Origin: a virus | Lineage: Duplodnaviria > Heunggongvirae > Uroviricota > Caudoviricetes | DNA length: 64,000 nucleotides | Strand: one strand, 5' to 3' | IMG/VR virus record: IMGVR_UViG_2537562172_000006 | Part shown: positions 56,001 through 62,000 of the stretch, piece by piece | Numbering within the stretch: position 1 is the first letter of the stretch | Layout: each line of letters begins with the position of its first letter | Program-made: the position numbers

Positions 56001-59000
56001 ACGCCTGTTTCAAAACACGCGATAACACGTCTCCTAATTTTTCTCCCTGAAATCCAGTACCGCTAAATCTCACAGGAGAACCATCTTCTTTTTTTCTATA
56101 AACGGGGTTAACAACCAGATTCAACGTCTGGTTGGTGCCAATCCAGTTAGCATAAGCCATATAGACTTCACCATAGATAATCTCTCCCTGTTGATCTGGA
56201 TTAGCCAAAGGAAGTCCAGAAGCAAAGCCAGCAGTTAAGCTAACAATGCATCCGTTGAGATTTACACTTTGCTGTAACATCTCAATAGGTAAGCCATAAA
56301 TTGTCAGCATCGTTCCGGAACCAACAACATCCAGGCCGGTTACTTCAAAGTCAAATTCAACATGCAACCCACATCCTGGTGTTTCACTGGTATCAAAAGG
56401 CCCAATGGGGTTCCCATTGCTATCCACTGGCGGCTTACCAGTTTTAGGGTTAATAATTTCCAGTCGGTAATAACGCATTAGTAAACCTCGAACTGATTAG
56501 TACTTTCACGAAAAATGAGCTTTCCCGGAGCAAATGGAAGTGCCAGATTGATGTCGTAACCATCAGGGGAAGCAATCAGAGGCGTGTATACAATGACCTC
56601 ACCAGAACTGTTTTTCAGTTCCAGATAATAGCGATTCGCATACAGATTGAACGGAACACGGGCAAATAAAATTTCCCCTCCCATCCTGAATTTAAATTTG
56701 AAAGGTTTTTCCCCATCAGGTTTGAATGGTATAAAAGTATTCATACTCCAGACTCCTGCACAATTTGATTCTTGATACCTGACAATGATTGCCACTAAAT
56801 TATTTAGTGGCATGATTCACTCACTCTGTTTTTTCCAGTTGAGCCAGCCGCCCGGATATTTCTTCCAGTTTTTCCAGGGCTGGCTTGCAGGCCGCATCAA
56901 TAACTTCACGGACCATTCCGGCGAGCTGTTCTTCTTCTGTCGGCGTTGTTACTTCCACACCTGATGGTTTCCCGCCCTTATCCCATACGCCCAACGGTAC
57001 GAGCGCAACGTGATCGATAAGAAATGGCGTACCCTCAATGAAAAAATTGTCCTCGCCCATTACATCAGGAACTTCTGCCCCACCGGACGCACCACAAAAC
57101 ACAACCGACGGGCTGGTGGATACCTCCCCCCGTGCTTTCTGGATGTAATCGATGATTTCCTGCCCGTAAATCCGGCATACGCCCCACACCTCGTCACCGC
57201 GAATATACGGCAACATAACGGTGCCAATAATGCGCGACCGTTCGCCCACGTCTTCAAGGGTTTTGCTTTCGGGATGGTCGATAATGACGGGTACTCCGGC
57301 GCAACGTTCCAGGAACTGCGGATTGAGATAAGTTTGCGGTGAACGCCAGACAAATTCTTTTTCTTCGGCGCGGTAGGCCATTCCGGTTCCTGTGATACGC
57401 AGGTTAACCAGCCACATGTTGGAAAACTGATAAGGCGACGGTAGCTGTCCGTCCCGAATCTGCTTCGCCGCCTCAATTTCTGTTAAAAGCATAATGTTAT
57501 CCGGTTATAAGCAATAAGCCCCGCCAAATCCGGCAGGGCTGAAATCAGCACGTTTTTCATGCCCCCGAGAGGCTTGCAGTGTTAATTTTTACCAGGCGAC
57601 GGGGAGGAATTTTGAAAGCACTAAGCCAGTTATTCGGATCCCCCTGATATTCAGTAATCCGGCGTCCGGCTTCATCCATTCTTACGGTTTTACGCAAATA
57701 GCCCGGCGTATTTTCCACGGCCCACTGAACACTGTCTTTTGCAGCCTGGTAAATCTGATCTTCCAGCACCGCCAGCGTTGCAGAATCTGAAACGGAACGA
57801 ATATCCACATCACTGAATTTTTTAGCCAGCTTCTGTGCACCAATTAATGCACGCTTGCGGTAATCCATCGACTTTTCACCAGCAAACGGGGCTGGAGCGC
57901 GACGGCCCATACAACTGTATGCTGAATCCGCTTTGGCCTGGGCTTCTGCCAGTGAGGATTCATCTTCGACTGACGCGACGATGTTTTGATTCGCGTTGTC
58001 CTCATCTGCTTTTGTGAAATCCTGTGCGGGGATCGCATTCAGAATTTCGATAATCTCCTGCGGAGTGCTGCCCTGCGACTCTGACAGAGCGTTAACCACC
58101 TCCATCAGTTTTAATCGCAAATCTTCTTTGCTTGCTGGCATTGTTACCACCTCTCTTTTTTCACCAAAAAATCACGACCATCAGGCCGGACGTTCTACGG
58201 GATAAAGCGCCCGCTGCATTAAACGCCGGGCGACCTCATGAATGCTCGGAGCAATCCCCAGCGGAGAATTGCGGCGTTCCTCGTCCTGGATGCGCTGTAA
58301 TGCTTCAATCTGATCACGAGCGAGTAAAACGGGTTTCACGCTGGCTTTTCTCATAGTCATATCTCCTGAACAAAACAATGATTATGATTGCACAAACTGA
58401 AATGACGATCTACATCATTGCAATTTATGAAACAATAACGCATGATGATCGCGTTCTTCCCATTGACTTCAATCACCTGAAAAACAAAGCCCGCAACACT
58501 TCTGGCTGCGGGCTTTTTACTGGCACAAAAAAGCCGGGAAAAATCCCGGCCTCCGTCACTGACTGCAATTTTTCGATCCAGGGTATTTCCTGAATGCCTT
58601 ACCATTGGGCTGATGTAATCCCATCCCGGCATGTGCCCGGCTGATGGTTTCGCGCATCTCCCCGAAATTATCCTGCCTTGCTGGTGGGCGTGCTGCCTTG
58701 CGGATACATTCCGCGCGACGTTTTGCCGCCTGTTCCCGTGCCTTGTCATCATTCGCCAGCATGATGACCTCAGCCCACCGCGCCGCCGCTCTCCGGTACA
58801 GACCACGCGCTTCCAGTGCTTCCGCTTTGCTGTCGTGAATCATGCGCCTGTTTTCTCCTTTGCTACCCGGCGCTGACGTTTGCGCTTCTCATTCAGCGCC
58901 ACCAGCCGCGTTTCTGCGTCCTGTTGTTCCTGTGGTGTCACCTCGCCGCACGGCTGGCCTTTCAGGTCGTAGCGTACCCCACCAGCCATTAAGGCGCGGT

Positions 59001-62000
59001 AATAGCGCGGACACTGTGCATAAGATGCCAGCGTCGCACGCAATGCCCCTGGACCGAATGCCAGCCCCCTGACGGCGAGATCCTGCATCAGGTCGTCGAA
59101 TATCCCCACCTTAAGCGGCTTCGGTGCTTCCCGGCTGAATAATTCAGGCCACAACTCAGTGAGGCGGTTAATGCGCCTGCGGTTTTTGCGCTGGCGCTTG
59201 GTCATATGCCGCCACGGTGTCGCCCCTGTGGGCTTCTGCTGCGCTTTCTGGTTACCGGGCATCACTTTATGCGCCGACGTGGTTTTATCCTGCTCCTGTG
59301 CCGCCTGCGTCGTTTTCTGCGGCGTGCCATAAATGCCTTTCGGTTTTCTGTTAATGGTCAGCTTAGTCATGCTTTGCCCCATCGTTACAACTGTCTACCA
59401 ACTGTCTACCGATATAATTGATTGATTTATTTAATGTTATTAACTCATAACAAAAAAACAATCTGCAAACTGTCTACTAACTGTCTACCGCATTAATACA
59501 TTGATAATTAATGATTTTTACTAAATGGTAGACAGTGTAGACAGTTAAAAGAGAAATTTAAAAAATGAACCCTTAACTATCTGTTTTTTTATATACCCCC
59601 CGTGGTTTAGGAATATAGAAATAACTGCCCACCTCTCTACCACATTAAAAATACCTATATAATTCAAAACATTAATTAGTAGATGGTTGGTAGAGGGTTA
59701 AGTGTATCTGTCTACCAACCGTCTACTTTTAAGTTTCAACTTATAAATTTCGTATCATGTTCTGTCGTTAATGCCTGCCGCTGCTGGTAACCATCCATCA
59801 GCATCTTTATCTAACAGAACATTTGTGATCGTTCGCCCTTTATCTGGACCTTTAGTGCATTTAGCCCGCTTGTACTCCTTTCCGTACTCAGCCATTGCCC
59901 CTGGCATATCTGTACCAAAGCGTGTCAGTGATACCGGTTTTCCCAGACCATGCGCAGACATATAAGCCAAATAAGCATGATACAGATATCGCCTCGGGCT
60001 AAATGGCACTATTTCTGCATTACCTACTATCATCCCCTCACATTTAACCAACGACATCAGATAACCGCAGAAGTCCACCAGCGAATCACCTTCACGCTTT
60101 ATTAACAGTGCTTCTTCTGATTTTTGCTGCTCATAAAGTAGTCTTTTCGCTTCGTCCTGGTCGGCAAATCGTGTAAGCAAATGGCGAATCACTACCGCCA
60201 GTTCGCCTTCTATTTTTTCCACCAGCATGGGATCGCGTTCGTTCTCCGGTACGACCTCAGAGAAATTAAATATCACCCTACGACGCGAGATCCCTCCACT
60301 GCGATCACTGAATGACATGGCGTTATTGTTTACTGCCAGCACTACCGCCGGAATACGTGTGGAGTAGGGGGCTTTATGTTTCGGGTCGATTGCCACCTTG
60401 TCACCGCCTGTAATGGCCTTAATCCCAGCACCATCACCTGCGTAGCGGGTCATGTCAGGCATGATAATCAGAGAATATCCCACCACTAACGCTCGTTCCC
60501 TCGCGTCTTCCAGCGCCTTCATGCTCGCCGATACTGTATTGGCCTTACCCGCCAGCATGGTACAAATCTCCGCCATCACACTTTTACCGCTTCCGCCCGG
60601 CCCCGTTACCTCAAGGAATAACTGCCAGTCGTACCGGTTCGCCAGTACCATGAATAATGCCGCCAGTACGCGATCCGCTTTACGATCGTTATTTGCCACC
60701 GAACGACGCAGCCACTTCCAGAAATTCGGCGCATGTGTTGCCAGCGTTTCCCCCTCTGCTGGTGGGCTGAACGGTAATTCACTGGCATTTAACAACCAGT
60801 CATTTTTGTTATGCTCCCGAAAATTTCCTGTCCGGGTATCAAATACCCCGTTACTGAATCCAATAAGATTCCTGTCTGCCCCGCCCATAACAGGCAGGCT
60901 CAATTTCATTGTGTCTACGGCAAATTTAATGGCGTTTTGCGAATAACTGATTCCAGCATCAATAAAAATCTTCGCCATAGACCGCTGGAGTTCCTTATCA
61001 GATACAGGCTCCCAGACAATTCCGTTGTAATGGTGAACTACATCAGAATCGTCATTTATAGCCAGTGCCCTTCCATAATATTCAAGCAATACTTCCCCTC
61101 TCTGGCTGGCTCCCATCTGATTTAGTGCTGGCCTGGGTAGGTCACTATTTTTTGTGACTAATTTCATCGCTGAAACTTCCCCGCGCTCTGCCTGTTCGCG
61201 GATCCGTTGCAGGTAATCGCGCCAGTTCTCCGGCTCCCGGTCGGTGATGCCTTTGTATAATTTCGCCTCCTGTACGCCAGCCAGTGCCAGCTTTTCGGCG
61301 ATAGCGTTGATCTGAATTGGTTCGATCTCCCCTGCGATATAGACACGCGCAAAGCGGCGCCCTTCGTCGATAATGCGGATGTTCGCCAGGTCTGCCAGTT
61401 GCTTCGGCCCCAGGTAAACAGGTGGTACGTTATCGCCGTGTTTTCGTCCTTCGCTTTCAATCCAGTGTTGAGCATGGGCGTAAGCATCCGTCCCGGCAAA
61501 AATGATTACCTCAGTGAATTTATCCTTCGGCTGATATTTTAAATTCGGGGCGTTTTTCACTTCTTACCTCCCGCAACCAACATTGCCCGGATTTTTTTAA
61601 TATTCGTGGCTGCACGTCTCGCCACCGCCTGTTGTTTGTTTTCCACCAGAATAAAATCACGCTCAAACTGACGGCGCGGCATTACGCAGTCATATTCGTA
61701 AGCCTCACGGCGGTAGGTGATATTGCCTGGCGTAACGTGACGAATAACCACTCGTCCCCCACGTCTGGTGTCGCGGTAAATATCGCCGTGTTTGATTTCA
61801 GGCCGAGCGGGGCCGCTGGCAGTAAAGCCAGAATTTTTCTTTTTCATGGTTTTTTACTCCTGCGTCTTGCTCTGAATTACCTGATAACCGCAATCGGTCA
61901 GCAATTCGATAAATTCCGGCAATGTGCCGAAACAGCAATCATCACGCAGACGTTCGCGGGATACCTCAACGCCGTTTTCATAATGGCTCACCATGCGTCC

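What the first reader, a model, noticed from the sequence alone, without database searches (positions are those of the whole stretch)
58840..59382. FinO/ProQ-domain RNA-binding protein encoded next to the satellite origin
Basic N-terminal tail followed by a core resembling FinO/ProQ RNA chaperone domains. Such proteins on mobile elements usually partner with a specific antisense RNA, implying RNA-based control of element replication or helper interference. The family call is from remembered motif patterns only.
Basis: inference. Interest (0 to 1): 0.4.

Follow-up and report, generated by a model that had tools for sequence, protein, structure and literature searches.

The report
FinO-type RNA chaperone in phage satellite
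The gene does encode a FinO/ProQ-type RNA-binding protein, an optional part of the replication operon of a common E. coli phage satellite, and a conserved, unannotated antisense RNA at the head of that operon is its most plausible but unproven partner.

Summary
ORF 58840-59382 (- strand; likely start 59370) scores 84.5 bits against Pfam ProQ/FinO (cutoff 27). Its model matches only FinO-domain structures, and the residues of the RNA 3'-end pocket are present. It lies directly after an iteron-rich, AT-rich origin downstream of a P4-family primase, in an int-alpA E. coli satellite of the PICI type, inserted between smrA and abgR.

The gene is not new. RefSeq already calls it "ProQ/FINO family protein", and homologues occur in 1175 of 5426 complete E. 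coli genomes, always on chromosomes. It falls below the family-specific cutoffs for FinO and for ProQ.

It is an accessory gene. Only 19 of 94 islands that share the operon leader carry it, yet 59 of 60 FinO-bearing islands have that leader.

On the opposite strand of the leader (window + strand, about 62416-62494) I found a candidate cis-antisense RNA. It has an extended -10 promoter element, an anti-Shine-Dalgarno stem-loop and a terminator hairpin. Covariation supports the fold, and 85 G·U pairs occur on this strand only. It is not in Rfam.

The proposed FinOP-like feedback on the icd-primase operon is inference, with roughly 0.3-0.4 probability. No transcription or binding data exist.

The parts
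58840..59382 (-). FinO/ProQ-domain protein gene. The probable start is 59370 (M5). It consists of a disordered basic N-terminal tail, a FinO domain (about residues 62-160) and a basic C-terminal helix.
   Evidence: ORF. Pfam PF04352 at 84.5 bits. PDB sequence hits to ProQ, FinO, NMB1681 and RocC. AlphaFold model with pLDDT about 90 or more for residues 60-170. The top 26 Foldseek hits are all FinO domains. The conserved start is shown.
58556..58843 (-). PerC-family regulator gene. Its ATG overlaps the finO stop codon (ATGA), which suggests translational coupling.
   Evidence: Pfam PF06069 at 111.6 bits. The overlap is read from the sequence. perC follows finO at +539 to +557 in most FinO-bearing islands. 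It is enriched in them: 11 of 19 against 18 of 75.
58486..58552 (-). Two tandem intrinsic-terminator hairpins that end the operon after perC. They are an alternative possible ligand for the protein.
   Evidence: Terminator scan. Fold energy -40.5 kcal/mol, z = -5.4.
59383..59754 (.). Predicted satellite replication origin: iterons AACTGTCTACC in both orientations around AT-rich DNA.
   Evidence: Repeats. G+C of 25-34%. Position 3' of the primase gene, as described for PICIs (PMC6092414).
59755..61560 (-). Primase-helicase (replication initiator) gene.
   Evidence: Pfam D5_N, DUF5906 and Pox_D5. TIGR01613 P4-family primase at 95.8 bits, which is below its 108.7 cutoff.
61557..62415 (-). The three upstream genes of the same operon: Icd-like (62212-62415), a hypothetical 121-aa protein (61854-62219) and a DUF4222 protein (61557-61847).
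   Evidence: ORFs, Pfam and RefSeq product names. The order is conserved in related islands.
62416..62558 (-). Early promoter (TTGACA 62558-62553, TACTAT 62535-62530) and the roughly 108-nt leader of the icd-like operon. GGTAATTACC palindromes (62512-62521 and 62542-62551) are putative operators.
   Evidence: Promoter scan, 10 of 12 matches. Sequence. The -35 element is conserved across islands while the palindromes are island-specific.
62416..62494 (+). Candidate cis-antisense RNA, called 'asIcd' here. Its 5' stem-loop carries the anti-Shine-Dalgarno sequence ACCUC. It ends in a 13-bp terminator hairpin (62451-62485) and a U-tract. It is complementary to the ribosome-binding site and 5'UTR of icd-like.
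   Evidence: Terminator scan. Minimum free energy -36.6 kcal/mol, z = -6.0, against -23.9 for the sense strand. RNAalifold and pair counts: 98.9% of cells paired, double-sided changes at 4 pairs, 0 of 500 shuffles reach the observed values. 85 G·U cells on this strand and none on the other. 30 of 31 hairpin variants are more stable in this orientation. No Rfam family matches.
62400..62408 (+). Predicted extended -10 promoter element TGgTATGAT for the antisense RNA. It lies inside icd-like codons 3-5.
   Evidence: Sequence. TGGTAT(G/A/T)AT is kept in 79 of 82 distinct sequences; the three exceptions are L051, L108 and L121. Third-position diversity at these codons is 0.00-0.02, against a gene mean of 0.21, although codons 1-18 are low throughout.
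62552..62725 (+). Divergent small ribbon-helix-helix (Arc-like) repressor candidate.
   Evidence: Translation. Weak Pfam Arc hit of 16.8 bits, below the cutoff. Related islands carry DUF3950/YlcI genes at the same place.

Best explanation
The ORF encodes a genuine FinO/ProQ-domain RNA chaperone. It is an optional gene at the far end of the early (replication) operon of an AlpA-type E. coli phage-inducible chromosomal island (PICI). The operon order is P_early, icd-like, orf, DUF4222, primase, ori, finO-like, perC, terminators.

Like other FinO domains, the protein should grip the base of a terminator hairpin and the 3'-OH end of its U-tail.

Its most likely ligand is the island's own roughly 78-nt cis-antisense RNA, transcribed opposite the ribosome-binding site of icd-like, the first gene of the same operon. 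By stabilising that RNA, or by speeding its pairing with the leader, the protein would damp translation and stability of the icd-primase transcript. This would be a FinO/FinP/traJ-like negative feedback that limits satellite replication and expression of the toxic Icd-like protein.

Shown here: domain identity, genomic context, and the existence, structure and strand of a conserved antisense element. Inferred: transcription of that RNA, its binding by the protein, and the direction of the effect.
For: Protein. Pfam ProQ/FinO scores 84.5 bits against a cutoff of 27. Sequence hits are to the ProQ N-terminal domain, FinO, NMB1681 and RocC. The model is confident, and its 26 best structural matches are all FinO domains. 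G93, R115, Y127 and R137 align with RocC G52, R75, Y87 and R97, which form the 3'-nucleotide pocket (PMC9674577).

Context. The same gene order, with finO after the replicase, origin and sometimes ssb, is seen with three unrelated replicases and in a capsid-forming PICI. It also holds in a 40%-identical relative. 59 of 60 FinO-centred islands carry the icd-type leader 3.0-5.1 kb upstream on the same strand.

RNA. The two-hairpin antisense fold has a z-score of -6.0. Covariation is seen at 4 pairs, 98.9% of cells are paired, and 0 of 500 shuffles reach the observed values. All 85 wobble cells, at 8 pair positions, are G·U on the antisense strand, so they would be mismatches on the sense strand. 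The U-rich tract follows the hairpin only on the antisense strand. An extended -10 element is conserved at three synonymous sites. The first tail U's pair with an upstream AGA(A/C), a trait of ProQ-type ligands (PMC12001967).

Precedent. FinO acts with FinP, FopA with Inc and PcnR with a replication antisense RNA; all pair a FinO-domain protein on a mobile element with a cis-antisense RNA against a leader (PMC9977716, PMC7491321, PMC8053102).
Against: There are no expression or binding data. The antisense element is not specific to FinO-bearing islands: only 19 of 94 leader-bearing islands encode the protein. Hairpin variants are shared between FinO+ and FinO- islands, and stability does not differ between the two groups.

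The only 11-mers specific to FinO+ islands lie inside finO itself. Host ProQ is present in every E. coli and could serve this RNA. The base of the hairpin looks like a ProQ-type ligand rather than a FinP-type ligand.

The usual N-cap serine of the FinO domain is a glycine here (G110). The finO-perC pair has about 60% G+C, against 44-58% across the primase gene, and it is linked to perC. This suggests an imported cargo module rather than a core regulator.
Confidence: 0.4

Rival explanations
1. The protein is regulatory cargo that acts in trans on host or helper-phage RNAs. Targets could include phage antisense or immunity RNAs, 3'UTRs of host mRNAs, or competition with host ProQ. With PerC it would form a two-gene module that reprogrammes host or helper gene expression rather than controlling the island's own operon.
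For: The gene is accessory, present in 19 of 94 related islands. It is enriched with perC, with which it is translationally coupled. Its G+C of about 60% differs from its neighbours. It shows no co-variation with variants of the island's antisense RNA. FinO-domain proteins such as ProQ and NMB1681 bind many RNAs (PMC9977716).
Against: It always sits in the same slot of the replication operon, even at 40% identity and with different replicases. FinO-domain proteins encoded on mobile elements that have been characterised have narrow targets encoded on the element itself. No candidate trans target was identified here.
Confidence: 0.3
2. The protein works at the replication fork or origin together with the island's SSB. 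For example, it might bind the 3'-OH ends of RNA primers or structured single-stranded nucleic acid made at the adjacent origin.
For: It directly follows ssb in many islands, and follows the origin here. FinO domains recognise a 3'-hydroxyl end next to a duplex.
Against: The papers read here describe no replication role for a FinO domain; I did not search specifically for one. Most islands with the same replicases lack the gene. In this window there is no ssb.
Confidence: 0.1
3. The protein binds the tandem terminators of its own operon (58486-58552). This would protect the 3' end of the finO-perC mRNA from exonucleases and so raise PerC expression.
For: Two strong terminator hairpins with U-tracts lie directly after perC. 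The FinO/ProQ review read here (PMC9977716) describes most ligands as engaging the protein through their terminator structures and notes that many ProQ-dependent sRNAs derive from 3'UTRs.
Against: About a third of FinO-bearing islands have no perC and a different downstream gene. No downstream sequence specific to FinO+ islands was found.
Confidence: 0.12

Closest known systems
FinO / FinP / traJ fertility-inhibition system of F-like plasmids
   Same: Both have a FinO-domain protein with a basic N-terminal extension (1dvo is the best structural match). In both, the gene lies near the far end of a long operon whose first gene has a 5'UTR and ribosome-binding site covered by a roughly 80-nt, two-stem-loop cis-antisense RNA that ends in a terminator.
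   Different: Identity is only 29-35%, and the NCBIfam FinO score of 64 is below the 136 cutoff. The gene is chromosomal and lies in a phage satellite, not a conjugative plasmid. The candidate RNA has paired A-U and G·U below the hairpin (ProQ type), whereas FinP has a purine-purine mismatch. The RNA occurs mostly without the protein.
FopA-Inc (IncI plasmid pCol1B9) and PcnR (IncI2 plasmids)
   Same: These are FinO-domain proteins with basic N-terminal regions on mobile elements. They act on a replication-control antisense RNA aimed at the leader of the replication initiator mRNA (PMC7491321, PMC8053102, PMC9977716).
   Different: No close sequence relationship was found: the best plasmid relatives are at most 41% identical, and there are no plasmid copies among 1658 E. 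coli matches. Here the antisense RNA covers an icd-like gene four genes upstream of the primase, not the initiator's own leader.
ProQ (enterobacterial chromosomal global RNA chaperone)
   Same: ProQ is the best sequence match among solved structures (5nb9, E = 6e-12). The pocket residues Y70 and R80 are shared. The candidate RNA has ProQ-type features around its terminator.
   Different: There is no ProQ linker or C-terminal domain. The NCBIfam ProQ score of 58 is below the 127 cutoff. The gene is carried on the island and is accessory.
C4 / CI antisense RNA control of icd-ant (phage P1) and of the P4 early operon (Rfam RF01695)
   Same: Both use RNA-level control of an operon that starts with an Icd-type cell-division inhibitor in a temperate element or satellite. 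Two FinO-bearing relatives (L003 and L210) carry C4 and isrK RNAs in the same leader position.
   Different: The window has no C4 or isrK match. Its element is a true cis-antisense gene on the opposite strand, not an RNA processed from the sense leader.

Membership tests
ProQ/FinO domain family (Pfam PF04352) | Profile match above the curated gathering score | tested here: met
   84.5 bits against a cutoff of 27, residues 67-172, covering profile positions 4-108 of 109.
ProQ/FinO domain family (Pfam PF04352) | FinO-domain fold (helical core with a beta-hairpin) | tested here: met
   The AlphaFold model has pLDDT about 90 or more for residues 60-170, with helices 62-77, 94-105, 111-122, 125-132 and 150-179 and strands 136-138 and 144-147. 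The top 26 Foldseek PDB hits are FinO, RocC, NMB1681 and Lpp1663; the next hit has E above 3.
ProQ/FinO domain family (Pfam PF04352) | Conserved 3'-nucleotide pocket (RocC G52, Y87 and R97, plus R75) | tested here: met
   G93, Y127, R137 and R115 align with these residues. They are invariant or at least 90% conserved in 15 homologues. Their roles are taken from PMC9674577.
ProQ/FinO domain family (Pfam PF04352) | Ser/Thr N-cap of the helix that reads the hairpin phosphates (RocC S70) | tested here: inconclusive
   The aligned residue is G110, within a conserved G-x-G-x-L-R motif. The helix starts at residue 111 in the model. Glycine might also cap a helix, but that rests on general structural knowledge and was not tested here.
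ProQ/FinO domain family (Pfam PF04352) | Binds structured RNA 3' ends | not testable with these tools
   This needs EMSA, ITC or CLIP.
FinO proper (fertility inhibition protein, NCBIfam NF010317) | Score above the family cutoff, and a location in the tra region of a conjugative plasmid | tested here: not met
   64 bits against a cutoff of 136. All 1658 E. coli matches are chromosomal.
ProQ proper (NCBIfam NF003434) | Score above the family cutoff, and a linker plus C-terminal domain | tested here: not met
   58 bits against a cutoff of 127. The match covers only profile positions 5-120 of 205, and the protein ends at residue 180.
Gram-negative PICI (phage-inducible chromosomal island) | int and alpA, then a pri/rep gene followed by an origin with iteron sets around AT-rich DNA, mostly unidirectional transcription, and a size of about 10-15 kb | tested here: met
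   The integrase and AlpA (PF05930, 65.9 bits) are found in the 99%-identical island L001, beyond the end of the window. The primase and iteron origin are in the window. The island lies between smrA and abgR. The criteria are from PMC6092414.
Gram-negative PICI (phage-inducible chromosomal island) | Induction, packaging and transfer that depend on a helper phage | not testable with these tools
   This needs helper-phage induction and transfer assays.
FinOP-like antisense control circuit | A cis-antisense RNA with a terminator, complementary to the ribosome-binding site and 5'UTR of the first gene of the operon | tested here: met
   This is predicted only. The evidence is structure, covariation, strand-specific G·U pairs, a U-tract and a conserved -10 element. 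The RNA has not been observed.
FinOP-like antisense control circuit | Protein and RNA co-occur as a dedicated pair | tested here: inconclusive
   59 of 60 FinO-bearing islands have the RNA element, but only 19 of 94 islands with the RNA element have the protein. No specific co-variation was found.

The most novel reading that the evidence does not exclude
AlpA-type E. coli satellites would run a previously undescribed post-transcriptional switch. A cis-antisense RNA sits over the ribosome-binding site of the icd-like gene that heads the replication operon. This RNA element is present in about 24% of complete E. coli genomes, is unannotated and is absent from Rfam. About a fifth of the islands would add their own FinO-domain chaperone at the end of the same operon, turning the RNA into a FinOP-style feedback timer of satellite replication and Icd toxicity. 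The remaining islands would rely on host ProQ.
Probability: 0.3. Interest if true: 0.6.

Novelty: new member of a known kind. Interest (0 to 1): 0.4.

Why it matters
FinO-domain chaperones are known from plasmids and chromosomes, but none carried by a phage satellite has been studied. Papers on satellites list them only as accessory genes (PMC13612085, PMC13230959).

Suppose the protein works with the conserved antisense RNA found here. PICI induction is currently explained by AlpA activation alone. It would then gain an RNA layer that limits replication and Icd toxicity. That layer would also be a direct point of crosstalk with host ProQ.

The pieces are short and well defined, so the idea can be tested quickly. 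If it does not hold, the gene is simply one more annotated ProQ/FinO family member.

Tried and rejected
1. Rfam scans of the island (E up to 1) and of the leader alone (E up to 10) gave no family at threshold. There were only sub-threshold resemblances to generic antisense RNAs.

2. A second + strand candidate (promoter-like site 63073-63101 plus terminator 63150-63177) was rejected as an sRNA. It is better explained as a bidirectional terminator between the convergent antA gene and the RHH/small-membrane-ORF unit.

3. The 331-aa ORF 62212-63207 is not a gene. Only its last 67 codons (icd-like) are conserved and annotated.

4. A search for 11-mers specific to FinO+ islands outside finO found none.

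5. A scan of synonymous-site diversity along finO, looking for an embedded RNA element, gave a flat profile.

6. A comparison of antisense hairpin stability and U-tail between FinO+ and FinO- islands showed no clear difference, and the tail measure was noisy.

7. The genome-contig scan returned only 2 loci.

8. An attempt to inspect the model island EcCICFT073 by guessed coordinates landed in a lambdoid prophage and was abandoned.

9. PADLOC gave no defence-system hit for the FinO-like or PerC proteins.

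
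Full report
**The observation.** An ORF spans exactly 58840-59382 on the - strand and encodes 180 aa. It matches Pfam PF04352 (ProQ/FinO) over residues 67-172 at 84.5 bits, against a cutoff of 27. Among solved structures, the sequence hits are the ProQ N-terminal domain, FinO, NMB1681 and RocC.

An AlphaFold model built from 15 homologues is confident from residue 60 onward and disordered for residues 1-51. Its 26 best PDB matches are all FinO-domain structures, and the next hit has E above 3. The N-terminal 60 residues have 10 K+R against 2 D+E. Residues 61-75 hold 8 K/R, and the C-terminal helix is also basic.

The alignment shows that M5 is the shared start. Only that ATG is preceded by a GGGG run, so the gene probably starts at 59370, as RefSeq annotates it. 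The observation and the family call are therefore correct.

**RNA-binding residues.** I used the HMMER alignments to ProQ and RocC and the RocC-RocR structure paper (PMC9674577). G93, R115, Y127 and R137 correspond to RocC G52, R75, Y87 and R97. These residues form the pocket that holds the 3'-terminal nucleotide, and R75 contacts the backbone. All four are invariant or nearly so among homologues. The one departure is the helix N-cap serine, which is G110 here.

The protein is not FinO or ProQ in the narrow sense. The NCBIfam scores of 64 and 58 are well below the cutoffs of 136 and 127. It has no ProQ C-terminal domain. The best plasmid relatives are at most 41% identical, and the best phage relatives at most 39%.

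**Context.** The flanking 59383-59754 has 25-34% G+C and holds at least 10 copies of the iteron AACTGTCTACC in both orientations. It lies directly after a D5_N/DUF5906/P4-type primase-helicase gene. That is the position and layout described for PICI origins (PMC6092414).

A 99%-identical island in E. coli ETEC1747 shows the whole element, inserted between smrA and abgR. Its gene order is integrase, AlpA, AntA-type antirepressor, Icd-like, hypothetical protein, DUF4222, primase, origin, ProQ/FINO family protein, PerC, then cargo. The element is thus an AlpA-type PICI satellite.

RefSeq already names the gene "ProQ/FINO family protein". Homologues are found in 1175 of 5426 complete E. coli genomes, at 1658 places, all chromosomal. 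ProQ/FinO-like genes in satellites have been mentioned in passing but not studied (PMC13612085; PMC13230959).

**A fixed slot but an optional gene.** The gene sits at the end of the replication module whatever the replicase: D5-type primase, DUF927 primase-helicase or RepA helicase. It often follows ssb. It also occurs in a capsid-forming PICI. A 40%-identical relative has the order primase, ssb, then two tandem FinO genes.

Among IMG/VR islands that share the operon leader, only 19 of 94 with enough downstream sequence encode it. Most of the others carry an unrelated 83-aa protein at that place. perC is enriched next to finO (11 of 19 against 18 of 75), and its ATG overlaps the finO stop codon. 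The finO-perC pair has about 60% G+C, higher than its neighbours.

**Search for an RNA partner.** The operon starts at a promoter with 10 of 12 consensus matches (62558-62530). This promoter is overlapped by GGTAATTACC palindromes and faces a small Arc-like gene. Related islands keep the -35 element but have their own palindromes and their own small divergent gene.

The 108-nt leader of icd-like is strongly conserved. On the opposite strand (window + strand) the scan finds a hairpin followed by T8 (62464-62494). Upstream of it, inside icd-like codons 3-5, lies TGgTATGAT, an extended -10 element (62400-62408). The predicted RNA (about 62416-62494) folds into two parts. A 5' stem-loop contains the anti-Shine-Dalgarno sequence ACCUC, and a 13-bp terminator hairpin follows. 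The energy is -36.6 kcal/mol (z = -6.0), against -23.9 for the sense strand.

**Comparative support for the antisense RNA.**
- In 27 distinct variants, 98.9% of pair cells are standard pairs. Four pairs show changes on both sides (24 cells). None of 500 shuffles reaches the observed pairing or covariation.
- All 85 wobble cells, at 8 pair positions, are G·U in the antisense orientation. None of the unpaired cells is A·C. On the sense strand these 85 cells would be mismatches.
- Of 31 distinct hairpin variants, 30 are more stable in the antisense orientation, typically by 5-8 kcal/mol.
- The U-rich tract follows the hairpin only on that strand.
- TGGTAT(G/A/T)AT is kept in 79 of 82 distinct sequences, all but L051, L108 and L121.
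- The third positions of the three codons concerned are almost invariant (0.00-0.02, against a gene mean of 0.21). However, all of the first 18 codons are low, so this point is weaker.
- A second leader type, with a different Icd N-terminus, keeps the hairpin. Its small stem changes from CGATA/TATCG to CGTTA/TAACG, and GGTATG stays at the matching place.

The element occurs in 1281 of 5426 E. coli genomes. It is in no Rfam family, and I found no paper on it. The first tail U's pair with an upstream AGA(A/C). That is typical of ProQ ligands and unlike FinP or RepX (PMC12001967).

**The link between protein and RNA.** In favour: 59 of 60 FinO-centred islands with enough upstream sequence have this leader 3.0-5.1 kb upstream on the same strand. 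The layout also mirrors F plasmids, where FinP covers the traJ leader at the start of the operon and finO lies at its end. In addition, FinO-domain proteins on mobile elements that have been characterised work with cis-antisense RNAs (PMC7491321; PMC8053102).

Against: the RNA element is four to five times more widespread than the protein. Hairpin variants are shared between FinO+ and FinO- islands. The only 11-mers specific to FinO+ islands lie inside finO. Host ProQ could serve the RNA.

Two FinO-bearing relatives use a different, known RNA system in the same leader position, namely C4 and isrK. This shows that RNA control of this operon is general, but not that FinO is tied to one RNA.

I therefore put the FinOP-like circuit at about 0.3-0.4. 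Action in trans on helper or host RNAs gets about 0.3. Protection of the operon's own tandem terminators (58486-58552) and a replication role alongside SSB get about 0.1 each.

**Verdict.** The finding is real and the family assignment is right, but the gene is already annotated and abundant. It is a new, uncharacterised clade of a known family in a known kind of element. The added value is the context: an accessory gene in a fixed slot of the PICI replication operon, and a well-supported but unobserved cis-antisense RNA at the operon's head.

Noticed in passing
window 62416-62494 (+), with its promoter element at 62400-62408: A conserved candidate cis-antisense RNA lies opposite the ribosome-binding site of icd-like. 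It is supported by covariation and by G·U pairs found only on this strand. It is present in 1281 of 5426 E. coli genomes and is in no Rfam family.
   Followed up: yes
window 62500-62560 and 62552-62725 (+): The early promoter is overlapped by GGTAATTACC palindromes and faces a small Arc-like (ribbon-helix-helix) gene. Related islands have different palindromes and a DUF3950/YlcI gene at the same spot. This looks like island-specific repressor-operator pairs, which the AlpA-only model of PICI induction does not include.
   Followed up: partly
window 62747-62893 (+): A 48-aa ORF with a hydrophobic N-terminal half (MYIFGKWLLIAATLTLLYFFVAG...) lies downstream of the Arc-like gene. It has no Pfam match and could be a small membrane protein or toxin.
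   Followed up: no
window 63150-63185: A strong hairpin flanked by an A-tract and a T-tract lies between the convergent antA gene and the Arc-like/small-ORF unit. I read it as a bidirectional terminator rather than an sRNA.
   Followed up: partly
window 58486-58552 (-): Two tandem intrinsic terminators lie directly after perC (-40.5 kcal/mol, z = -5.4). Both have A/T-tracts on each side, so they may work in both directions.
   Followed up: partly
window 52973-54178 (-): A 401-aa STAND/AAA NTPase (Pfam nSTAND1, with a weak PADLOC PDC-S59 hit) sits at the smrA-proximal end of the island. It may be anti-phage defence cargo.
   Followed up: partly
window 54907-58150 (-): The cargo and packaging region differs from the otherwise 99%-identical ETEC1747 island. 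Two adjacent ORFs (57557-58150 and 56821-57492, the latter DUF2213/prohead-protease-like) match different parts of a single PHROG family (phrog_6216). A 345-aa protein resembles a baseplate hub (phrog_196), and a 174-aa HTH protein resembles a small terminase.
   Followed up: no
L210 845-1876 and 6521-7731: A distant relative of the island carries two tandem FinO-domain genes after ssb. Its operon leader holds one isrK and three C4 antisense RNA copies, all above the Rfam gathering scores.
   Followed up: partly
L002 3454-3522, L004 3832-3898 and L006 963-1030: Several FinO-bearing relatives have the Rfam 'int-alpA RNA' (RF02996) just after the integrase gene. The island nearly identical to the window (L001) has no match at the gathering score.
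   Followed up: partly
window 62212-62269 (icd-like codons 1-18): Synonymous variation is almost absent in the first 18 codons of icd-like, while several amino-acid changes are tolerated there. This points to a nucleotide-level constraint that extends beyond the predicted -10 element.
   Followed up: partly
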